The notes beneath the pieces are model-generated. The model was not told the DNA's origin, did not search any database, and saw nothing but the letters and a program-made list of their open reading frames with translations. A DNA stretch of 64,000 bases from a virus (Duplodnaviria; Caudoviricetes): IMG/VR virus record IMGVR_UViG_3300021979_000004, positions 128,001-192,000 of that record; one strand, 5' to 3'. Both the position numbers and the translations under genes were made by a program. This document shows, in pieces, positions 18,299-31,237 of the stretch; the stretch's first letter is position 1, and every line of letters begins with the position of its first letter.

Positions 18299-19213
18299 GT
18301 GGAACATATTCGAAGTAATGCAAAAATGTTTGGTGAAATAGTGAGCGATGAGACTATTGTGGAGTATCTTCTAAGTATTCCAGATCAAACCCTTCGCTAT
18401 GCTACAGAGAATTGTGCGTCTGAAAGTCCTTATGTCTTTGAAATGTATGGAATGTACAATGATCGATTTTATGATTTCTCATTGAATGTTGATAATTTGT
18501 TACGCCATATGAAGATGCAACTGTTTAGTTACGAAAAAAACTTCTATCATTATTTCAGAGAAAAAGATTTGGTAATTCTAAACTTTATTCTTTCATCGGA
18601 TAAGATTGAATATCCACAAACAATACCAATGTTAGAGACTTATGATTTCGATACTTCTAAAGCATTGATGGGATGGGCTGTAAGTACTAATAGAACATCT
18701 GAAACTGTTTTAAACATGATTGGTGATGAGTATAACTTTTTCAGAGACATAGATGCACAAGACCGTGTAGAATTGAAACAGTATTTTTGGAAATCAGCAT
18801 ATTCAAGAAACAGTTCTCAAACACCAGCGTTTCACTGTTTCCCTCGTGGTGATCACAGTATAATGTTACTGTGTAACACCCTTCCATTACATGATCGTTA
18901 TAATTGTTTGTTCGGTAAAGAAAGAATTGAAAGTGATGGCTGGACAGATGAAGACGTTGATGTTATGGTAGACTTTGTTAAAGAGTATGAAATATCACCT
19001 TACTTCATTGCCCATGACCTTAGAGGTAAAAAGCTTTATGGGCGAGAAAGAGTTTATCAAGCGGCACTTGAAGCTGGTGATAATTATTTAAAATACCTTG
19101 AAGTCAAGAAAAGCAGTTCGTTTATTAATTGGAAAATTCCTGATGATGTTTTTGAGAATAGGGATTTTGCGAACTTCATTAATAAAATGAAGTTGAAGCA
19201 CGGAGTTGAGTAA
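18299..19213 (+). CDS. Hypothetical protein
   Basis: TTGACA/TATAAT promoter at 18250-18277; GGAGG RBS with GTG start. Confidence 0.65.
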   Translation: MEHIRSNAKMFGEIVSDETIVEYLLSIPDQTLRYATENCASESPYVFEMYGMYNDRFYDFSLNVDNLLRHMKMQLFSYEKNFYHYFREKDLVILNFILSSDKIEYPQTIPMLETYDFDTSKALMGWAVSTNRTSETVLNMIGDEYNFFRDIDAQDRVELKQYFWKSAYSRNSSQTPAFHCFPRGDHSIMLLCNTLPLHDRYNCLFGKERIESDGWTDEDVDVMVDFVKEYEISPYFIAHDLRGKKLYGRERVYQAALEAGDNYLKYLEVKKSSSFINWKIPDDVFENRDFANFINKMKLKHGVE

Positions 19214-20100
19214 TGAGTTACAGTCAAAGATTACACAGAGATAAAATTGTTAAAAATATAGAACCATACATCCTTGAAAACGTTCAGTATGAAACGGTAA
19301 TGGGAAGTCAGGCTTATGGTGTGTCTAATAACAACTCAGACCTAGACATTTATGGCTTCACTATTCCACCAAAACGTATTGTGTTTCCACATACAGTAGG
19401 GCATATCTACGGCTTTGGTAAGCAAGGCCCTGAAACTTTCAAGCAGTTTCAAAAACATCACATTGATGCATATGAGAAAGAAATTGACTTGAACATTTTC
19501 AGTATTGTGACATACTTTACATTGTTGATGGATAACAACCCGAACATGCTAGACTCTATCTTTACACGTCAGCAGTCGGTAACCCATGCTACTAAGATTG
19601 GTCAAATGGTCAAAGATCGCCGCCATATGTTTTTACATAAAGGTGCATGGCACCGTTATCGTGGGTATGCTTATTCACAGCTTCAAAAGATTAGAACTAA
19701 AAAAGCGGAAGGAAAACGTAAAGAGCTTGTTGAAAAATATGGTTTTGATGTAAAGTTTGGATACCATGTTGTGCGCTTAATCAATCAAGTTGAAGACATT
19801 CTTATGCATGGTGACTTTGACCCTATGGCTCATCGTGAAATGCTAAAGTCTATTCGACGTGGTGATTGGAAACTAGAAGATGTAGAAGATTTTTTCAAGC
19901 GTAAAGAAAAGCTACTTGATGATCTTTATATCAATTCTAGCTTGCAAGAATATCCAGATGAAGGTAAGATAAAACAGTTGTTGCTTGATTGCTTAGAAGA
20001 GTTCTACGGAACTATTGATAGCAATGATATTCAAACTACGAATCAGTTTGAACAGGCGCTACTTGAAATTAAGAGAATAACTGATAAGGTGATCAAATGA
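19213..20100 (+). CDS. Pol-beta-family nucleotidyltransferase (RlaP/Nuc-transf-like)
   Basis: GSQAYG...SDLD, NNPNMLD, HVVRL motifs. Confidence 0.82.
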   Translation: MSYSQRLHRDKIVKNIEPYILENVQYETVMGSQAYGVSNNNSDLDIYGFTIPPKRIVFPHTVGHIYGFGKQGPETFKQFQKHHIDAYEKEIDLNIFSIVTYFTLLMDNNPNMLDSIFTRQQSVTHATKIGQMVKDRRHMFLHKGAWHRYRGYAYSQLQKIRTKKAEGKRKELVEKYGFDVKFGYHVVRLINQVEDILMHGDFDPMAHREMLKSIRRGDWKLEDVEDFFKRKEKLLDDLYINSSLQEYPDEGKIKQLLLDCLEEFYGTIDSNDIQTTNQFEQALLEIKRITDKVIK

Positions 20101-20318
20101 GTAAGCATCTTCCTGTTGTATACACATTGTATAAAGATGACCCCGAGCATTGGCATTACAAGCACCATGGTACATTGGAACAAATCTACACTCAAAACAG
20201 TGCACTTTGTACCCAATCTACTATGGAACAGGTTGCCAAGTCAGTTACGGAACAGGGCAGGTACATCTATATCGATGACCTGCTAGGATTTACGCATATT
20301 GTAGAGAAAGAACTATAA
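20097..20318 (+). CDS. Hypothetical protein
   Basis: ATGA overlap coupling. Confidence 0.55.
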   Translation: MSKHLPVVYTLYKDDPEHWHYKHHGTLEQIYTQNSALCTQSTMEQVAKSVTEQGRYIYIDDLLGFTHIVEKEL

Positions 20319-20330
20319 GGATAATATTGT

Positions 20331-22262
20331 ATGAATGATGGTATGTACCCAAGTCAAGCTATTAACACAGTTCCCGATTCGCGAGAAAAAGGAAATGTGG
20401 AATCAAAGAAAAAACCAAAAGTGAATGTTTCTATGACCAACGATAAAGATTTCAAAAATATTCTTACTATTGTGGCGAACAATCTAACCATGGATTTTGA
20501 CCTACCAGAAGGATATGATGAAAGTGTACTGGAAGGTTTTACAACAAATCTTTATACCAGCTTTGTTGATCGTATTACACTAACTGACGAAAAGACTGGT
20601 AGTGAACGTCATTGGTTGGTTTTTAGTGACGATGGCTATATCAAGCCTATGCGTAAAACTCTGCCTAACATTAACAAGCGTCAAAACGAAGATACTTACA
20701 TCGTTCTAAATCCTAACGATAAAGATAATGATGCGGTTATGATTGAAGAAACTTTTCTTCAAAAGCATTTTTATGAAATTGTGAATGACGCTCTTATGAA
20801 CTTTGGTAGTGATGAAGACATTACTAACTTTGTGATTGCCTATGTTAAAGACGGTTTCATTGGCGTTCCTGAAATTTTCGACAAGGAAACTTTTTCTTTT
20901 TCTGAGTACTTTGCATATCTGGTTGATGCGTATCACAAAGAAAAGGTTCTGTATTACAAAGATGCTGATATGTACAGTGATCGTCGTCTAGGAAATTCTC
21001 AGCTTAACATTCATGTAGTTCAGCCATTTGCACAACCACCATATCTGGTTATTGGTATTCCGGTTAACTTTGAAATCAATGGTGAGTTTGTTCTACGTCG
21101 TATTAATCAGGTAGTTCCTATTATGTCTGAGTACGAAGTAGATGATTGTGGTGTTGAACGCCCATCTAAGCGTGAAATTGAAAATCGTATTGCTGAAAAC
21201 CAAGAATACATGAAGAACCTTGATCGTTACCAAGTGTATGAAGGTCTGGCACAAGTTCCGGGCTTCATGAAAGTTCGCGAACTTTATGTAAACACTCGTG
21301 TAATGGTTGACATGGGTGCGCTATACTTTGTCGATCCAGATCGCCTTGGTGGCCTTCTAAATATCATCAATTCTAATCTTGATGGGGCGCAGATTGATAG
21401 TAAGGTTTCTAAAAAGAGTAAAGGATATTCTGAAAAAGAATACATGGCTCTTAGTAAGAATGTGGTTTGTTATGACCTAACTAAGAAGCAATGGTTCATT
21501 GGTCATCGTGATAACCTACGCGAAATCAATTTCCGTAAAGATGCTTTTGAAAAGCTACAGATGGATGCTGCGAAAAAGAACATTATTCGTAAAATCTGTT
21601 CATCAGATAACGTAGAAAAGGGTAATAACATCGACTTCATTGATTCAAAAGGTGGTGGTAACATCTTCCTACTACACGGTGTTCCCGGTACTGGTAAGAC
21701 TCTTACCGCCGAAGCTATCTCTGAGCTTCTAGAACGCCCACTGTACAAAGTTAATATCAGTGAGTTCGATAGCCTAAGCGAACTTGAGCAGGGCATTGAA
21801 ACGTCTCTGAGGTACGCTGAGCGCTGGAATGCAACACTTCTAATCGATGAGGCTGATGTGGCATTGGAAAAGCGCGACAGCACTAACATTGAGCGTAATG
21901 CTATCGTAGCTGTATTCCTTCGTCTGATTGAATACTACTCCGGTACTATGTTCCTGACTTCAAACCGTGCAAATGAGTTTGATGATGCGTTCAAATCTCG
22001 TATCACGTTTGCTATTCATTATCAGAGTCCAAGTACAGAGGTTAAGACCGCAATCTGGACTAATATTCTTGAAGGTGTTGAAACTGACATGACTAAAGAA
22101 CAGATCAAGGAAGTTGCTGGATATGATATCAACGGTCGCCAGATCAAGAATATCATCAATACTGCAACCTTTATGAGTGATGATGGTTCTGCACGTTTTG
22201 AAGATGTAATGGTTGTTCTTGAACAAACCATGGAATTTGAAAACTTTCTTAAGAAGGAATAA
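20331..22262 (+). CDS. AAA+ ATPase with large N-terminal domain
   Basis: GVPGTGKT, LLIDEAD, FLTSNR, AFKSRI. Confidence 0.92.
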   Translation: MNDGMYPSQAINTVPDSREKGNVESKKKPKVNVSMTNDKDFKNILTIVANNLTMDFDLPEGYDESVLEGFTTNLYTSFVDRITLTDEKTGSERHWLVFSDDGYIKPMRKTLPNINKRQNEDTYIVLNPNDKDNDAVMIEETFLQKHFYEIVNDALMNFGSDEDITNFVIAYVKDGFIGVPEIFDKETFSFSEYFAYLVDAYHKEKVLYYKDADMYSDRRLGNSQLNIHVVQPFAQPPYLVIGIPVNFEINGEFVLRRINQVVPIMSEYEVDDCGVERPSKREIENRIAENQEYMKNLDRYQVYEGLAQVPGFMKVRELYVNTRVMVDMGALYFVDPDRLGGLLNIINSNLDGAQIDSKVSKKSKGYSEKEYMALSKNVVCYDLTKKQWFIGHRDNLREINFRKDAFEKLQMDAAKKNIIRKICSSDNVEKGNNIDFIDSKGGGNIFLLHGVPGTGKTLTAEAISELLERPLYKVNISEFDSLSELEQGIETSLRYAERWNATLLIDEADVALEKRDSTNIERNAIVAVFLRLIEYYSGTMFLTSNRANEFDDAFKSRITFAIHYQSPSTEVKTAIWTNILEGVETDMTKEQIKEVAGYDINGRQIKNIINTATFMSDDGSARFEDVMVVLEQTMEFENFLKKE

Positions 22263-22283
22263 GGGGGGTTATCCCCCTTTATT
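22258..22283 (+). terminator. Intrinsic terminator
   Basis: AATAAGGGGG-GTTAT-CCCCCTTTATT. Confidence 0.75.
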
Positions 22284-22296
22284 TTAAAGGTGACTA

Positions 22297-22770
22297 ATGA
22301 TTATTTTAGATGTTGAAGCCAGTGGATTACATGAAGACTCTTACCCAATACAGGTAGCGTGGTTGAATACTGACACTGGTGAAGAAGATAGTTTTTACAT
22401 AAAACCAGAAGAAGAGTGGACATATTGGGATATTAACGCAGAAGACATTCATAATATTCCAAGAAAGCTTCTAGATGATGTGGGAATCCCCGCTGATCTA
22501 GCTGTAAAGCGACTACTTTCCTCACTTGGCAAAAAGGTGGATATCTATACTGATGCACCTGACTTCGATGGCTTTTGGTTGTCCAAGCTTTTTGGTGCGG
22601 TGTTGGTCGATCCTGAAGTAAATGTTAAAGTTCGTTCAGTGTATGAAGTGTGCCAATATCAAGAAGACTTTTACGCTCTTCAGGAAATTATGCACAGTCA
22701 AGAAAGACCGCACGACGCGCTAGAAGACTGTCGTATGATATGGCAAGCAATTAAAGAAGTCGTTGGTTAA
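22297..22770 (+). CDS. DEDDh 3'-5' exonuclease
   Basis: ILDVEASG ... FD ... HDALED. Confidence 0.85.
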   Translation: MIILDVEASGLHEDSYPIQVAWLNTDTGEEDSFYIKPEEEWTYWDINAEDIHNIPRKLLDDVGIPADLAVKRLLSSLGKKVDIYTDAPDFDGFWLSKLFGAVLVDPEVNVKVRSVYEVCQYQEDFYALQEIMHSQERPHDALEDCRMIWQAIKEVVG

Positions 22771-22805: not shown

Positions 22806-23573
22806 ATGAGACTAGAACAACTTTTCGAAGATATACATTCAGACCAAGGAAAATTATCAAGTGCTAAAAAGGCATTTGATGATCTTATGTTTGAAATTAA
22901 AGGACATGTAGAGCTACTTGGTCTTGATGAATTTGATACCTTCGAAAAGTCGTACCTTGAAATAATGTCTAAGCTTTATACGTACACCTTTAAGTTAAAG
23001 TACAAAGATGAACCCATAACCGTTCGTATCCTTCCACAAACCAACTTAGATCGTAATAGGCTTGGTGTGTTAAACACAACAAGTATTGATGATGGAAGTG
23101 GCGTAAAATATCAGTATCAAATTACTATCTTTGTAAATCCTCATGACGATTTTGATTTGATTAGTGCAACAGATTTTTACAGAACGTTTGCTAAGAGTTA
23201 CCAGAAAGTTTTTATTCATGAGTTTGTACATTTTATCGACGCGGTTGAAAGTGACAACCAAGATAATTATACGCAAACAAAAAGAAAGCTTAGACAGAAA
23301 GGCAAGTACATCAATACCCCACAGGAGTACAATGCATTTTACATTCAGATGATGAGTGAAATAGATGATGCATTCGAAGACTCTGCCGTTATGAATATAT
23401 TCAAACAAGACCCCTCATTTGATAAGTTTCTATCCCTCATAAACGTCGAAACACATGCAGGAGAAATGCTAAAGGATTTGGAAGGGAAGTATAAAAAGGC
23501 GTTTAAGAAGAGGTTATATCAATTATACAACCACTACTTGGAAAGAATAAAAGATCAAGCCAACGAAAAGTAA
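22806..23573 (+). CDS. HExxH zincin metallopeptidase-like protein with capsid-targeting-like N-terminus
   Basis: MRLEQLFE; HEFVH ... YINTPQEYNA. Confidence 0.6.
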   Translation: MRLEQLFEDIHSDQGKLSSAKKAFDDLMFEIKGHVELLGLDEFDTFEKSYLEIMSKLYTYTFKLKYKDEPITVRILPQTNLDRNRLGVLNTTSIDDGSGVKYQYQITIFVNPHDDFDLISATDFYRTFAKSYQKVFIHEFVHFIDAVESDNQDNYTQTKRKLRQKGKYINTPQEYNAFYIQMMSEIDDAFEDSAVMNIFKQDPSFDKFLSLINVETHAGEMLKDLEGKYKKAFKKRLYQLYNHYLERIKDQANEK

Positions 23574-24004
23574 TCTCTTCTATCGGCGTGATTATTTAAC
23601 TTATTTAAAAGCTTTGTTAAGTTCCCTTTTAACTTAAAAGTGTTCTTGCTCTTACTATCTTCGAAGAAGAGTTTAACATCAAACCCCTTACAAACAAAAG
23701 AATAGCCAACATGTTCTTCTCTCTCTTCCCAATCTCTGTTGAAGAAAGTTTCAATTTCCTCATCTACATCTAGATATGATTCAGAGCAAACTACTTGGAT
23801 ATCAAGTACAGAATCAAAAATTTCAGAATTATACAATATGTTTTTGATACGGTTTTTAATTATCAGGCTTAGAGAATTTATAGAAGTGATTTTCGCACGT
23901 TCAGTTTTTCCATCTTTCATTCGCCTAGATGATGAGCGTATGCCACTTTTTGATAGTAATGTGAATTCAAGAGTTTCCATTATAAAATTCTTCCAACTTT
24001 TCAA
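23555..24004 (-). CDS. Hypothetical protein
   Basis: ORF in a minus-strand operon; true start probably downstream of 24004. Confidence 0.5.
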   Translation of the reverse strand: MKSWKNFIMETLEFTLLSKSGIRSSSRRMKDGKTERAKITSINSLSLIIKNRIKNILYNSEIFDSVLDIQVVCSESYLDVDEEIETFFNRDWEEREEHVGYSFVCKGFDVKLFFEDSKSKNTFKLKGNLTKLLNKLNNHADRRDYFSLA

Positions 24005-24386
24005 TCGAAATGTTATTGTATAAAACCTTTTCGTGATTGATTATATAATCAATAAAATCAGAACCTTTCCCTAATACTTGCTTAGTATCAAGGATTTCAT
24101 TACCTTCAACGTCAATTATTTCGCGAACACTATCTACTGTTAGACCTATATAACCACCATCGCTCATTTCTAATATGATGATGTGACTAGGCATGTCGCC
24201 TATGACATTGAACATCTTCTTTGAGTCGAGGATAGTTATTACCGTGTCTCGTAGGTCAATCATCCCTTCTACACATGTGTTGCTTGAAAAGAATCTTGAA
24301 GGTTCTCGGTATTTTATTATTTCCTTTATCTTTAATACAGGTAATGTGAAATCCATATCACATACTTTAAATGAAAAATATTGCAT
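23967..24386 (-). CDS. cheW: CheW-like chemotaxis coupling protein
   Basis: YFSFKV...FTLPVLKIKEI...VEGMIDLRDTVITILD...IIILE...IGLTVDSVREII, the full CheW pattern. Confidence 0.88.
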   Translation of the reverse strand: MQYFSFKVCDMDFTLPVLKIKEIIKYREPSRFFSSNTCVEGMIDLRDTVITILDSKKMFNVIGDMPSHIIILEMSDGGYIGLTVDSVREIIDVEGNEILDTKQVLGKGSDFIDYIINHEKVLYNNISIEKLEEFYNGNS

Positions 24387-24387
24387 T

Positions 24388-24828
24388 TTATCTTTCCAGT
24401 TTTATAATTTTATAACAATCTCTAGTACCTTTATTTACTCGATTATAGTCTTCTAGAAAACGATCATACGAGTCTTTAATAATAAAAATTCTAGGATCAA
24501 TATCTTTGCTATATCTAAGCTCAACCACAAACTTTGAGCTTTCAATCTCTCCGCAACCTATAGGGAACCTTCGCCAGTCGAAGGGACTTTTCTGAACTTC
24601 ATCCAGCTTTCTACAGATTTCTAGGTTATCTTTATCCAAGCATTCATCGGTAACCTTAACCGTAAAATTATCAGGCTTGAAGTGCTTCTTTACATGTGGG
24701 TTCACACGGTTAAGCATAAACACAGACAAAGAGCTTTTCGCTTCTTTAGATGTCAAATTCTTATGTCTATAGGTTGATGCATGGATTCGCTTGTCGATCT
24801 GAACCATGAATTGAACTACCGTTGGCAT
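24388..24828 (-). CDS. Hypothetical protein
   Basis: GGAGAG RBS. Confidence 0.6.
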   Translation of the reverse strand: MPTVVQFMVQIDKRIHASTYRHKNLTSKEAKSSLSVFMLNRVNPHVKKHFKPDNFTVKVTDECLDKDNLEICRKLDEVQKSPFDWRRFPIGCGEIESSKFVVELRYSKDIDPRIFIIKDSYDRFLEDYNRVNKGTRDCYKIIKLER

Positions 24829-24928
24829 AATACTCTCCTAATTTATGATAGTCTACCATTCAGTCACCTACTGATCAACAGTTTAATATTCTAATGCTAT
24901 GTGTTATAATGCAGAAAAAGAGGTAGTT

Positions 24929-25735
24929 ATGAATATTCAAATTGAAGATGAAAACATACTGAACGTTCTAAACGAGAGTGTCATTGATCGCTTTGAGTTC
25001 GGATCGAAAATATATGGACTTGAGACTGAAAAGTCTGATGCTGATGACATTGCTGTGATCAAACAAAACGATTTCTTTGCCAATACCTTTCTATGGGAAC
25101 ATCATACTATTCAAAGGGCTAGTGAAGAACGTGACACCATCTATACTACCTTGCAGTTGTTGGTAAGGAACCTTATGACTGGTGACTCCACAGCATACTT
25201 TGAAACGCTTCATAGCAATCAGTGTGACGGTACTATACTTGAATTCCTAGCTGACAGGAAATCATGGTTTTATAACTTCACTACCATTCGATCTTTTGTT
25301 GGGTATGCACGTCGAGATATCAAGCACTCTAAGGATAATGGTAAGCGTTTTGCACATGCGGTACGTTGTTACTATGCCGCCAAGATGTTGTTTGATGATC
25401 ATTTTTATACCAATGACTATCGTGAGTATGATACTAACGTGTATGAATACATCCGTTCAATGAAATTGGGTACACATGGTCTAAGTAAGTATGAACTGTC
25501 TCAAGAGATTCAGTATTATAAAAAATCTATTGATGACTTGAGGAAACAGGTTAGTGAGAGCTTTAATAGTAATCAACGGAAGTATGACCGTTATATGTCG
25601 GCTGAGCGTCTTAGAGAGATAGATGCTTATGTTATAGACAAAAACAAGACATTGTGGTATGATTTGGAAGATGAAGAGAATTTTTACATTTATCAAATGT
25701 ACCACGCACTAGAAAACGGTATTGAATATGGATAA
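24929..25735 (+). CDS. Second Pol-beta-family nucleotidyltransferase-like protein
   Basis: FGSKIYG...SDADD; GYARRD; HAVR; GAGGT RBS. Confidence 0.7.
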   Translation: MNIQIEDENILNVLNESVIDRFEFGSKIYGLETEKSDADDIAVIKQNDFFANTFLWEHHTIQRASEERDTIYTTLQLLVRNLMTGDSTAYFETLHSNQCDGTILEFLADRKSWFYNFTTIRSFVGYARRDIKHSKDNGKRFAHAVRCYYAAKMLFDDHFYTNDYREYDTNVYEYIRSMKLGTHGLSKYELSQEIQYYKKSIDDLRKQVSESFNSNQRKYDRYMSAERLREIDAYVIDKNKTLWYDLEDEENFYIYQMYHALENGIEYG

Positions 25736-28671: not shown

Positions 28672-28938
28672 ATGACCAGATACGTTGAATTGATGACATG
28701 TCCGAAGAAAGAAAGTCTATTGCTTGGTATTATAGGTGGACTAGGAAATACATTTGGAATAAAACCAGAACTTCTAAGATTAATCTTTAGCGTTATTTTA
28801 ATAGCTAACTTTGTACTCGGAACAAATGCATTTTGGTTTTTTATTATTTTTTACTTCGTAAGCTTCTTTTTAATTCCCCGATATGAAGAAATGTACGACA
28901 GAGCTATTAACCCTGACGCACAACCACCCGAGTTTTAA
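28672..28938 (+). CDS. pspC: PspC-domain membrane protein
   Basis: LLGIIGGLGNTFGIKPELLRLIF followed by TM segments. Confidence 0.75.
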   Translation: MTRYVELMTCPKKESLLLGIIGGLGNTFGIKPELLRLIFSVILIANFVLGTNAFWFFIIFYFVSFFLIPRYEEMYDRAINPDAQPPEF

Positions 28939-29771
28939 AAGTTTTCGCGATACTGTTGGATCATTACCTTGACAGCTTTCTTCCAAAGATCAGGGTTTTG
29001 ATCCTTTATACCACTTAGAACTGGTGAAGAGAAATCATCCAAGAATTCAGTAAACCTTTCAACTCTAGCTGAATCATCGCCAACAAAGTAGCGCATTAGT
29101 TGCATACGGTCATTGTTATTGATATGCAATGATTTGGAAAGGAATTTTATTTTATTTCTAAATGTATTGAACTCAGACTTAAGGGTAGGTAATAGCTCAA
29201 CTGCCGACGTTGCATATTTGATATATTCTTCCTGCGAACCATCTTTGGCTTTATGGTTTTGAACTTGTCTAGGATCGACTTTAGAAAATGCTTTGAATTG
29301 AACAAAATGCATAAGCTCATGCTCAACTGTGTTTTCAAATTCGTGTAGTGTGTAATTAATAAAGGATTCTTTTGGTTCTTGGTCTGCCATCATCATTTTG
29401 AGATTGTGAACGTTTAAAGTTAACATGTTTGTATCGTCATCATACCCACCGTAATAATGATCGTTTGTATCAACGATACGAATATTGATGAACTTATCTT
29501 CCTCAGCAATATTGTATTTAAATTGGTAAGAACCTAACCCAACTTTAGCATTCATGATAACGTTAGAGGTATGGGAAAATTTTAAACGCTTATGAAGTTC
29601 TGGGTATTTTGGATGAATATCGATGGTGCTTAGAAATACATGTCCACTATGCTCGTCATCATTCTTGACCGCCATGAAATCTATAACATACGCATAAACG
29701 AATTCCATGATATCACTGGTTAGTGTTTCTGGTAAACGAATCATGGATTCAAATAACTGTGTTAAACGCAT
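28935..29771 (-). CDS. HExxH zincin-like protein with capsid-targeting-like N-terminus
   Basis: MRLTQLFE; HELMH ... YATSAVEL; TATAAATA at 29806-29813 on -. Confidence 0.6.
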   Translation of the reverse strand: MRLTQLFESMIRLPETLTSDIMEFVYAYVIDFMAVKNDDEHSGHVFLSTIDIHPKYPELHKRLKFSHTSNVIMNAKVGLGSYQFKYNIAEEDKFINIRIVDTNDHYYGGYDDDTNMLTLNVHNLKMMMADQEPKESFINYTLHEFENTVEHELMHFVQFKAFSKVDPRQVQNHKAKDGSQEEYIKYATSAVELLPTLKSEFNTFRNKIKFLSKSLHINNNDRMQLMRYFVGDDSARVERFTEFLDDFSSPVLSGIKDQNPDLWKKAVKVMIQQYRENF

Positions 29772-30307: not shown

Positions 30308-31237
30308 TTACTTTATTAGGTCTTCAACTCGCTTGTAGAAGTCTTTTACGACTTTCATATAAAGCTTTGGTGTATCTTGCTTTAGTGCTGAGAAATAATT
30401 CTTAGGTGGTATAGTTACAGGCATTGAATGATTGTCTCCCAATTTTATATCAAAACCCTTATCACTTAACGCCACAAACATACGGAAAAACTCTTTCTTC
30501 TGTTCTTTATCAAACTTCTGCCACCAGTCGTCACCTTCAACGAAACTTCTAAAGTCTTGCTCAAGGTTGGCTAGTTGTGGACGAATCTCTGCCGCAGAAG
30601 TAAAATAGTCATTGTGTACTTTATCTTCAGAGCGTTCACCTGATCCATAATTCTTTTTCGTAGCTGATTGGTCTTTGTGCAGCCCAATATCCTGAACCAA
30701 GTGCTGAAGCTCATGGTCGATAACACTCTTTAGTTTATTGAATTCAATTTTTACTTTCTTATCACTTTTACCACTTTCATCGAACCATGCACTTAATACT
30801 TCCCCTGAAAGGTCAAAAGCATTAATTAAAACATGGGGAACGCCATCTTTCATTCTGTAAGATGACACATCTTTTTCTCGCACCATTACTGAAACATCTA
30901 TCACAATAGCATCATTCTTAGTAAAGGAATCAACATTGTTTCTAACAAGCTGTGAGCTATGATAGTAAGGAACTTCTTCTGGACTCAAAACTGCAATCCC
31001 ATAATAGTCACGATTTGCTGACATACTACGCTTGAATCTTCCACTAAATTCCATTTCTAACGCATCAACATCGAGTCCCGTAGTATCTTCTATGACTTCT
31101 TTAAATTCGTTAACATCCTTCTCATTGCCACCACGTGCATGAAAATGATATACTGCAAAAACAGCCATACGGAGAACATCTTCTTTTAGTTCCTCGGGAA
31201 CTTTGATGGTTCTCTCAAATAGTTGATATAGTTTCAT
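30308..31237 (-). CDS. HExxH zincin-like protein with capsid-targeting-like N-terminus
   Basis: MKLYQLFE; HELQH ... YFTSAAEI; CATAAATA at 31259-31266 on -. Confidence 0.6.
   Translation of the reverse strand: MKLYQLFERTIKVPEELKEDVLRMAVFAVYHFHARGGNEKDVNEFKEVIEDTTGLDVDALEMEFSGRFKRSMSANRDYYGIAVLSPEEVPYYHSSQLVRNNVDSFTKNDAIVIDVSVMVREKDVSSYRMKDGVPHVLINAFDLSGEVLSAWFDESGKSDKKVKIEFNKLKSVIDHELQHLVQDIGLHKDQSATKKNYGSGERSEDKVHNDYFTSAAEIRPQLANLEQDFRSFVEGDDWWQKFDKEQKKEFFRMFVALSDKGFDIKLGDNHSMPVTIPPKNYFSALKQDTPKLYMKVVKDFYKRVEDLIK

What the first reader, a model, noticed from the sequence alone, without database searches (positions are those of the whole stretch)
23967..24386. Phage-encoded CheW
Seen: a full-length CheW pattern (GMIDLRDxVIxILD; IGLTVDSVREII), with no cheA or receptor gene nearby. 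Established: CheW couples chemoreceptors to CheA in arrays. Inference: it could act as a dominant-negative or rewiring factor that alters swimming of infected cells, for example to stop motility, redirect the cell before lysis, or limit superinfection by flagellotropic phages.
Basis: partly seen in the sequence, partly recalled or inferred. Interest (0 to 1): 0.7.

Follow-up and report, generated by a model that had tools for sequence, protein, structure and literature searches.

The report
Jumbo-phage-encoded minimal CheW adaptor
A giant marine bacteriophage carries its own stripped-down copy of CheW, the small protein that links bacterial chemotaxis receptors to their kinase; relatives including the cultured Salicola phage SCTP-2 also keep it, so these viruses probably tamper with how infected cells navigate, though nobody has tested this.

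Summary
Window 23967-24386 (-) encodes a 139-aa protein that is one complete CheW domain: Pfam PF01584 E 1.3e-18, and an AlphaFold model with TM 0.85-0.89 to solved CheW structures.

The record is a 218-kb fragment of a marine jumbo myophage (terminase, 957-aa tail sheath). Its nearest cultured relative is Salicola phage SCTP-2.

No receptor, CheA or CheY domain is found in the 218 kb. The complete 440-kb SCTP-2 genome has no receptor or CheA domain either, and only a sub-threshold receiver-domain hit. SCTP-2 does carry a CheW, gp489, annotated 'hypothetical protein'.

Nine phage-context CheWs form one clade (support 97/87). They sit at a conserved syntenic position, match phage base composition, and are under purifying selection (dN/dS 0.12). 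This is an old, maintained phage gene, not contamination or a recent capture.

Compared with 418 bacterial CheW domains, all five conserved receptor-face positions are kept. All four conserved CheA-P5-face positions are changed, and the N-terminal tail and the end of the C-terminal helix are missing. The operon has a conserved sigma-70-type promoter and no conserved late motif.

Best reading (about 50%): an early protein that docks on host receptor tips and disturbs kinase coupling. Binding and phenotype are untested.

I found no paper describing a phage CheW. This scan had earlier noted chemoreceptor genes in jumbo coliphages, on other DNA.

The parts
23967..24386 (-). cheW-like gene: 139-aa single-domain minimal CheW
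   Evidence: Pfam PF01584 E 1.3e-18. AF2 model TM 0.85-0.89 to solved CheW. dN/dS 0.12 against an 80%-identical orthologue. The identical protein occurs on contigs from six other samples.
24388..24828 (-). Upstream co-oriented gene, 146 aa, no known family. Its stop codon is 1 nt before the cheW ATG.
   Evidence: ORF. No Pfam, PHROG, NCBIfam or PADLOC hit. dN/dS 0.03. Absent from more distant CheW-carrying phages, so it is lineage-specific.
23555..23980 (-). Downstream co-oriented gene, 141 aa from the ATG at 23980, overlapping the cheW 3' end by 14 nt. Predicted generic ferredoxin-like alpha/beta fold, function unknown.
   Evidence: Gene calls in relatives. dN/dS 0.09. AF2 pLDDT 78. Best structural Z 8.0, which is at the level of common arrangements. 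Only 3 homologous clusters found.
24850..24878 (-). Candidate sigma-70-type promoter of the three-gene unit: TTGATC (24878-24873), 17-nt spacer, TGG-TAGACT (extended -10, 24858-24850).
   Evidence: Sequence. Both hexamers and the TG are conserved in orthologous loci L002, L004 and L008 while the spacer varies. The 54%-identical relative L024 has TGGTATAAT upstream of its cheW. The genome's late motif [TCA]ATAAATA, usually 25-45 nt upstream of late genes, is absent; there is only CATAAATT at -19, which is CATAAACT in relatives. This is inference, not a mapped transcription start.

Best explanation
This is a genuine, long-maintained phage gene for a minimal CheW-domain protein. Most likely it is transcribed by host RNA polymerase early in infection. 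It then docks through its conserved receptor-binding groove onto the cytoplasmic tips of the host's methyl-accepting chemotaxis proteins. CheW and CheA-P5 compete for the same receptor site. The phage protein has changed the conserved residues that normally face CheA-P5 and has lost the end of the C-terminal helix that also contacts P5. It would therefore be expected to displace host CheW/CheA or break the CheA-CheW rings, uncoupling the kinase from the receptors. The predicted result is an infected cell that still swims but no longer responds to gradients (low CheY-P, biased motor). Shown here: domain identity, fold, phage origin, orphan status, clade, synteny, selection, and the residue pattern. 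Inferred: timing, receptor binding, uncoupling, phenotype, and any benefit to the phage.
For: CheW domain and fold.

Phage record and hallmark genes.

No MCPsignal, Response_reg or HATPase_c in the 218-kb record. In complete SCTP-2 there is no MCPsignal; the only HATPase_c hit is topoisomerase II; and the only Response_reg hit is 16 bits against a 30.2-bit cut-off. Any chemotaxis partners must therefore be host proteins.

Maintained gene: dN/dS 0.12 at dS about 1; GC 32.4% against a genome value of 35.5%; identical protein in six further samples; orthologues at 80%, 54%, about 30% and 26% identity in phage contexts; one clade with support 97/87; the same genomic slot (RlaP-like NTase | cheW | about 250-aa gene, RNase T, AAA ATPase, RlaP) in a relative whose CheW is only 30% identical.

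Residue pattern against 418 bacterial CheW domains, in E. coli numbering: core F22, E38, I39, G57, L61, R62, G99 and D103 are kept. All 5 conserved receptor-face positions are kept (V36I, E38, I39, V105, V108I). All 4 conserved interface-1 (CheA-P5) positions are changed (P49F, N60D, G63D, P67T). The C-terminal contact region E155/M156/L158 is truncated. Interface residue lists come from Table 1 of PMC13098124.

Excess CheW out-competes CheA at the receptor and disrupts receptor trimers (Gegner 1992 and Cardozo 2010, as cited in PMC13098124).

Conserved sigma-70-like extended -10 promoter, and no conserved late motif.
Against: No binding, localisation, expression or motility data exist.

The host is unknown, so it is not shown to be motile or chemotactic.

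Interface residues co-evolve with the partner. Changed CheA-face residues may therefore simply match an unusual host CheA, and E. coli itself has Ala at position 49.

G57, R62 and G99 are all retained, and mutations at these positions reduce CheA binding in E. coli.

The bacterial background set is biased: it is mostly domains of about 500-aa triple-CheW proteins plus Firmicutes, with no marine gammaproteobacterial CheW sampled.

Only 1 of 5 AF2 models was confident.

The nearest bacterial CheWs are at most about 32% identical, so function could have drifted away from chemotaxis.

The rest of the roughly 400-kb genome was not searched for che genes. The record is 73% complete by CheckV, and a 401-kb scaffold carries the same gene.
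Confidence: 0.5

Rival explanations
1. Supportive auxiliary gene. The phage CheW is a working coupling protein that binds both host receptors and host CheA. It keeps or boosts chemotaxis signalling after host gene expression is shut off, so that the infected cell keeps navigating to nutrient-rich water during a long jumbo-phage latent period.
For: Core residues whose mutation reduces CheA and receptor binding in E. coli (G57, R62, G99, E38, V36) are retained. Purifying selection is strong. A related jumbo coliphage lineage carries an intact chemoreceptor instead (PF00015 E 5.6e-39 in phage A4), which would fit a 'keep sensing' theme.
Against: All four positions of the CheA-P5 interface that are conserved in bacteria are replaced, and the C-terminal contact helix is cut short. 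It is not clear why CheW alone would become limiting. Extra CheW above the native ratio is inhibitory in E. coli.
Confidence: 0.2
2. Exapted scaffold. The CheW fold has been recruited to bind something other than the CheA-receptor pair. One option is a phage protein held at the polar array as a landmark, as the CheW-like array-integration domain of Vibrio ParP does. Another is a non-flagellar chemosensory pathway (Chp/type IV pili, Wsp). Another is host RecA, which binds CheW in Salmonella.
For: The clade has a long stem branch and is at most about 32% identical to any bacterial CheW. The P5-facing surface is clade-specifically changed but still partly conserved within the clade (S35, V39, E40, T51). 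The gene is tightly packed with two conserved unknown genes in this lineage. RecA-CheW interaction is reported in PMC4718596 and PMC5052270 (titles and abstracts).
Against: The flanking genes are missing in more distant CheW-carrying phages, so no conserved phage partner is evident. The receptor-binding face is the best conserved surface. The protein has no extra domain to carry cargo.
Confidence: 0.22
3. Passenger or decaying host fragment, or an assembly artefact, with no function in the phage.
For: The record is a metagenome-derived viral contig. CheW-like hits in public 'phage' records are mostly short fragments that look like host DNA.
Against: The same gene in the same context occurs in independent assemblies from at least six other samples, and in a cultured phage's complete genome. 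The frame is intact, dN/dS is 0.12, and composition matches the phage.
Confidence: 0.03

Closest known systems
Bacterial CheW (E. coli CheW, PDB 2HO9, 6S1K, 8C5V; T. maritima CheW, PDB 2CH4, 1K0S)
   Same: Single CheW domain with the same two-subdomain beta fold (TM 0.85-0.89). The family's near-invariant residues and the receptor-contact residues are retained.
   Different: About 18-22% identity. 139 aa, without the N-terminal tail and with a shortened C-terminal helix. The conserved CheA-P5-face positions P49, N60, G63 and P67 are replaced. The gene is encoded by a virus with no cheA, MCP or cheY gene. It scores 25 bits against a 260-bit cut-off for the enterobacterial CheW equivalog model.
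Salicola phage SCTP-2 gp489 (ASV44504.1, 'hypothetical protein')
   Same: 139-aa orphan CheW domain (Pfam E 7.9e-18) in a related 440-kb myophage whose tail sheath is 54.5% identical. It falls in the same clade in the tree. It is likely the only BFVD structural match (A0A248SKJ8, unnamed in the output; 139 aa, 26% identity, TM 0.87).
   Different: Only 26% identical. Its neighbouring genes differ. It keeps Pro at position 49. It is cultured, with a known host, so it is the practical system for experiments.
Chemoreceptor (MCP) gene of jumbo coliphage A4 (Asteriusvirus), noted earlier in this scan
   Same: A different component of the same chemosensory array, carried as an orphan by a jumbo myophage of the same broad sheath lineage (PF00015 E 5.6e-39; sheath 33% identical).
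   Different: It is a receptor, not the adaptor. A4 has no CheW, SCTP-2 has no MCP, and PA5oct, Phosso and GAP32 have neither. These look like independent acquisitions.
CheW overproduction phenotype in E. coli (Gegner 1992; Cardozo 2010, PMC5699227, as cited in PMC13098124)
   Same: It provides the mechanism proposed here: extra CheW competes with CheA for the receptor tip and blocks trimer-of-dimer and array formation.
   Different: That is the cell's own CheW made in excess in the laboratory. Here a divergent viral CheW would do it naturally, which is not shown.
Phage factors that remodel host motility (TldR RNA-guided flagellin repressors, PMC13418256; from my own memory, pilus-blocking Tip and Aqs1 of Pseudomonas phages)
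   Same: Phage-encoded interference with host motility organelles (abstract).
   Different: They act on flagellin transcription or on pilus assembly, not on the chemosensory array, and are unrelated in sequence.

Membership tests
CheW-like domain (Pfam PF01584) | Profile score above the curated gathering threshold | tested here: met
   67.4 bits against a 23.5-bit cut-off, E 1.3e-18. The six-frame search of the record gives the same single hit.
CheW-like domain (Pfam PF01584) | Two-subdomain beta-barrel CheW fold | tested here: met
   AF2 model pLDDT 85.5. Foldseek TM 0.89 (2ch4_Y), 0.85 (6s1k_C), 0.83 (2qdl_B). The next class of hits is CheA-P5. Caveat: only one of five models was confident.
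CheW-like domain (Pfam PF01584) | Near-invariant family residues (E. coli F22, E38, I39, G57, R62, G99) | tested here: met
   All are identical in the window protein.
Canonical receptor-kinase coupling protein CheW | Receptor-tip contact residues conserved | tested here: met
   All 5 receptor-face positions that are at least 70% conserved in 418 bacterial domains are kept (V36I, E38, I39, V105, V108I). Of 12 structural contact positions, 9 are similar to E. coli (residue list from PMC13098124).
Canonical receptor-kinase coupling protein CheW | CheA-P5 interface-1 contact residues conserved | tested here: not met
   None of the 4 conserved interface-1 positions is kept (P49F, N60D, G63D, P67T). 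The region matching E155/M156/L158 lies at a truncated C-terminus. Only 1 of 20 contact positions is identical to E. coli. Because interfaces co-evolve with the partner, this lowers but does not exclude CheA binding.
Canonical receptor-kinase coupling protein CheW | Encoded together with cheA, MCP and cheY genes | tested here: not met
   No MCPsignal, Response_reg or HATPase_c in the 218-kb record. In complete SCTP-2 there is no MCPsignal, the only HATPase_c hit is topoisomerase II, and the only Response_reg hit is 16 bits against a 30.2-bit cut-off.
Canonical receptor-kinase coupling protein CheW | Physical binding to MCP tip and CheA-P5, and support of kinase activation | not testable with these tools
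This needs biochemistry or genetics.
Enterobacterial CheW equivalog (NCBIfam NF007903) | Score above the equivalog cut-off | tested here: not met
   25.4 bits against a 260-bit cut-off.
CheV (CheW domain fused to a receiver domain) | C-terminal receiver (REC) domain | tested here: not met
   The protein is 139 aa and consists of one CheW domain only. There is no Response_reg match in the record.
ParP-type array-integration proteins | CheW-like AIF domain plus an N-terminal ParC-binding region (from my own knowledge of Vibrio ParP) | tested here: not met
   There is no sequence N-terminal to the CheW domain. The open frame extends only 5 codons upstream of the ATG.

The most novel reading that the evidence does not exclude
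The phage CheW is a two-faced adaptor. It uses the conserved receptor-binding groove to plug into the host's polar chemoreceptor array, and its remodelled former CheA-facing surface to hold a different partner (a phage protein, or host RecA or ParP-like proteins). In this way it turns the array into a docking platform or a sink. Together with the chemoreceptor genes of jumbo coliphages, this would show that giant phages repeatedly target the chemosensory array as a take-over hub.
Probability: 0.15. Interest if true: 0.85.

Novelty: new variant of a known kind. Interest (0 to 1): 0.6.

Why it matters
Chemosensory arrays are among the best-understood signalling machines in biology, yet I found no report of a virus that encodes one of their core parts. 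This work shows a conserved, selected, phage-specific CheW lineage whose receptor face is intact and whose kinase face is altered. That gives a concrete, testable way for a lytic giant phage to reprogramme where an infected marine bacterium swims. Such reprogramming would affect phage dispersal, superinfection and carbon flow around marine particles. A naturally evolved 'receptor-binding but kinase-face-altered' CheW would also be a useful probe of array assembly. The cultured pair Salicola sp. PV4 and phage SCTP-2, whose gp489 is still labelled hypothetical, makes the question testable now.

Tried and rejected
- **Phage DNA and protein searches.** Megablast of the 8-kb neighbourhood and tblastn of the CheW against 50,697 phage records found nothing. 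The SCTP-2 homologue surfaced only through the structure search and a profile search.
- **tblastn with a bacterial CheW domain.** It found mostly short, probably host-derived fragments in 'phage' records.
- **Literature.** Five searches turned up no description of a phage CheW. The apparent hits were author names or host genes.
- **Flanking genes.** There is no Pfam, PHROG, NCBIfam or PADLOC family for them. phmmer found no paralogues in the genome. ESM Atlas gave only weak leads (FhaA_N 0.87; Rep/Phage_CRI 0.93 with low feature counts).
- **Are the two flanks paralogues?** This is not shown: BLASTP E 0.028, hhalign probability 0.7%, E 0.08.
- **Downstream protein.** It folds confidently (pLDDT 78) but matches only generic ferredoxin-like arrangements (Foldseek nothing below E 0.07; VIA best Z 8.0).
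- **SCTP-2 downstream gene.** gp488 is not detectably related to the window's downstream gene.
- **Late promoter.** The CATAAATT at -19 was considered as a late promoter and rejected: it is at the wrong distance and is not conserved in relatives.
- **Profile search of the big protein collection.** It returned almost only enterobacterial CheWs plus one new phage-clade member, P0161.
- **Salicola motility.** A search for it in the paper library gave nothing usable.

Full report

It matches Pfam CheW (PF01584) at E 1.3e-18, 67.4 bits against a 23.5-bit cut-off. By sequence it hits solved CheW proteins in the PDB: 2qdl at 2.7e-7 and E. coli CheW at about 1e-6.

An AlphaFold2 model built on 11 relatives has mean pLDDT 85.5, although only one of the five models was confident. 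Foldseek places it on CheW of T. maritima (2ch4_Y, TM 0.89, rmsd 1.7) and E. coli (6s1k_C, 8c5v_E, TM 0.85). CheA-P5 domains come next and nothing else is significant. So the protein is one complete CheW domain.

It is a minimal one. The open frame reaches only five codons upstream of the ATG, so there is no N-terminal tail. The alignment with E. coli CheW shows that the chain ends inside the C-terminal helix.

**2. Is it phage-encoded?**

The window is bases 128001-192000 of a 217,982-bp IMG/VR virus record that CheckV rates 73% complete. The record encodes a terminase large-subunit piece (E 1.3e-67), a 957-aa tail sheath (E 7.9e-267) and a nicotinamide phosphoribosyltransferase.

The sheath is 54.5% identical to that of Salicola phage SCTP-2 (440 kb, from a solar saltern). 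It is about 38% identical to PA5oct-like and about 33% identical to Rak2/A4-like jumbo phages.

The identical CheW protein occurs on contigs from six other samples, mostly marine (Tara), including a 401-kb scaffold. An 80%-identical form lies on contigs up to 458 kb. Base composition of the gene (GC 32.4%, GC3 31%) matches the phage (35.5%).

**3. Orphan status.**

Six-frame profile searches of the whole 218 kb find no MCP signalling domain, no receiver domain and no histidine-kinase ATPase domain at E <= 0.1. In the complete SCTP-2 genome:
- there is no MCP domain;
- the only HATPase_c hit is topoisomerase II;
- the only receiver hit is 16 bits, below the cut-off.

The unsearched remainder of the marine phage's genome is a caveat.

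**4. Relatives and history.**

Close relatives (67-100% identity) are all metagenomic. IMG/VR holds two further viral contigs with a 54%-identical copy.

An exhaustive search of 1.84 billion representatives gave 2,428 hits. Only one was better than 1e-30. The few single-domain hits at 34-56% identity (P0011, P0014, P0035, P0106) lie on phage-like contigs with genes such as T4 RNA ligase, T4_Y16D, ClpP and RlaP. Most other top hits are roughly 500-aa triple-CheW bacterial proteins at 25-30% identity. A pattern scan of 185,579 species genomes found bacterial CheWs no closer than about 28-32% over most of the length.

The only structural match among viral proteins (BFVD) was an unnamed 139-aa protein, A0A248SKJ8, at TM 0.87. 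A profile search then showed that SCTP-2 encodes a CheW at 401758-402177. This is gp489, annotated 'hypothetical protein', with Pfam E 7.9e-18 and 26% identity to the window protein. It is probably the BFVD protein, since length and identity agree.

PHROG family phrog_18840, labelled 'unknown function', is in fact a CheW family: SCTP-2 gp489 scores 228 bits and E. coli CheW 326 bits against it.

A maximum-likelihood tree was built with 69 rows under LG+C20. It included E. coli and Pantoea CheW, ten named bacterial CheWs, domains of 16 multi-CheW proteins, and E. coli CheA-P5 as outgroup. It puts all nine phage-context sequences, SCTP-2 included, in one clade with support 97/87, recovered in 96% of bootstrap trees. 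Two caveats apply. Bacterial sampling is biased and lacks marine gammaproteobacteria. SCTP-2 is on a long branch.

Independent support for common descent within phages comes from synteny. In the contig carrying P0161, which is 30% identical, cheW sits between an RlaP-like nucleotidyltransferase and a block of a roughly 250-aa gene, RNase T, an AAA ATPase and RlaP. The window has the same arrangement.

Between the window and its 80%-identical orthologue, dN/dS is 0.12 at dS about 1. The six copies with identical protein differ only by synonymous changes.

PA5oct, Phosso, GAP32 and A4 have no CheW.

**5. Gene neighbourhood and expression signals.**

In this lineage cheW is the middle of three tightly packed minus-strand genes. 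A 146-aa gene ends 1 nt before the cheW ATG. A 141-aa gene starts 14 nt before the cheW stop. Both are real genes (dN/dS 0.03 and 0.09) without any known family.

The 54% relative has only a downstream gene, which is barely similar. The 30% relatives and SCTP-2 have neither flank. The flanks are therefore lineage-specific and not obligatory partners.

The genome's T4-like late motif [TCA]ATAAATA is about tenfold enriched upstream of genes. It peaks 25-45 nt before the start codon and precedes the terminase and sheath genes. The cheW unit lacks it.

Instead, the 70-bp divergent intergenic region holds TTGATC, a 17-nt spacer, and TGG-TAGACT. The hexamers and the TG are conserved in three orthologous loci while the spacer varies. 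The 54% relative has TGGTATAAT. This suggests transcription by host sigma-70 polymerase, that is, early. No transcription start or RNA data were available.

**6. Binding surfaces.**

I took contact residues of E. coli CheW from Table 1 of a 2026 review, based on PDB 6S1K and 8C5V (PMC13098124). I mapped them through alignments with E. coli CheW.

Among the 21 positions that are at least 70% conserved in 418 bacterial CheW domains, the window protein shows this pattern:
- **Core:** F22, G57, L61, R62, G99, V102 and D103 are kept.
- **Receptor face:** all five conserved positions are kept (V36I, E38, I39, V105, V108I).
- **CheA-P5 interface 1:** all four conserved positions are replaced (P49F, N60D, G63D, P67T).

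Counting 5 of 5 against 0 of 4 gives a one-sided Fisher p of about 0.008 by my hand calculation. If N60D is counted as conservative, p is about 0.05.

P67 is replaced in all nine phage sequences. P49 is lost only in the marine core group. The C-terminal contacts E155/M156/L158 fall at or beyond the truncated end.

Within the clade, the receptor face is the most conserved and interface 1 the least. The difference is not significant, and bacteria show the same ranking. Interface-2 residues (R117, E121, F122) are not conserved, but they are not conserved among the sampled bacteria either.

**7. Mechanism.**

CheW and CheA-P5 compete for the same site on the receptor tip. Excess CheW out-competes CheA and prevents receptor trimers from forming (Gegner 1992 and Cardozo 2010, as cited).

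A CheW made by the phage with an intact receptor face and a remodelled kinase face is therefore best read as an array poison or uncoupler. Infected cells would keep swimming but stop responding to gradients. I put this at about 0.5.

The rivals are:
- a supportive, working CheW (0.2);
- an exapted scaffold with a non-canonical partner or pathway (0.22);
- a functionless passenger (0.03), which selection, synteny and recurrence contradict.

**8. Novelty and limits.**

I found no paper on a phage-encoded CheW in the searchable library. The homologue in the cultured phage is unannotated.

The protein is a member of the CheW domain family, but of a phage-specific, minimal subfamily in a new context. 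I therefore rate it 'new variant of a known kind', with interest 0.6.

Not shown here: host identity and host motility (that Salicola is motile rests on my memory only), binding, timing, and phenotype. Complex prediction and read mapping were not available for this window.

Noticed in passing
window 24388-24828 (-) and 23555-23980 (-): Two conserved unknown genes flank cheW (dN/dS 0.03 and 0.09). They show a weak collinear resemblance to each other (BLASTP E 0.03; hhalign E 0.08, not significant). The downstream one folds confidently (pLDDT 78) into a generic ferredoxin-like alpha/beta domain. Both are absent from more distant CheW-carrying phages.
   Followed up: partly
Salicola phage SCTP-2, MF360958.1 401758-402177 (L030:5759-6178, -): gp489, annotated 'hypothetical protein', is a CheW domain (Pfam E 7.9e-18). 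PHROG family phrog_18840, labelled 'unknown function', is a CheW family: E. coli CheW scores 326 bits against it.
   Followed up: yes
whole record G000; in the window, for example upstream of 22806, 28227, 28935-29771 (-), 30308-31237 (-), 31302 and 32890: A T4-like late-promoter motif [TCA]ATAAATA is about tenfold enriched upstream of genes. It peaks 25-45 nt before the start codon and precedes 45 of 332 crude gene calls, including the terminase piece and the tail sheath.
   Followed up: partly
window 18299-22770 (+) and 24899-25735 (+): A conserved block lies next to cheW: a 304-aa ORF of no assigned family (18299-19213), an RlaP/phrog_388 nucleotidyltransferase (19213-20100), a 643-aa AAA ATPase and an RNase T-like exonuclease. 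A phrog_388-like nucleotidyltransferase (24899-25735) sits on the other side of cheW. The same order is kept in a relative whose CheW is only 30% identical (L050). It may be an RNA-repair or RNA-processing module.
   Followed up: no
window 24883-24929 (+): The ORF listed from 24899 probably starts at the ATG at 24929, since relatives are called at 268 aa. A TTAATA-16-TG-TATAAT promoter-like site at 24883-24910 would then lie just upstream, divergent from the cheW promoter.
   Followed up: no
proteins P0012-P0160 (search): Most of the best non-phage hits are bacterial proteins of about 500 aa made of three tandem CheW domains (114 of the 168 sequences cut into domains; the next most common count is two). 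In the sampled proteins, domains at the same position in different proteins often group together in the tree.
   Followed up: no
L021:768-1841 (contig with CheW relative P0035): An IS605 OrfB/TnpB (Cas12f-like) gene lies about 1.4 kb from the cheW-like gene on a 64-kb phage-like contig.
   Followed up: no
Escherichia phage A4, ON286972.1 51970-52431 (L035): There is an intact MCP signalling domain (PF00015 E 5.6e-39, 477-aa open frame) in a jumbo coliphage that has no CheW. SCTP-2 has a CheW and no MCP.
   Followed up: partly
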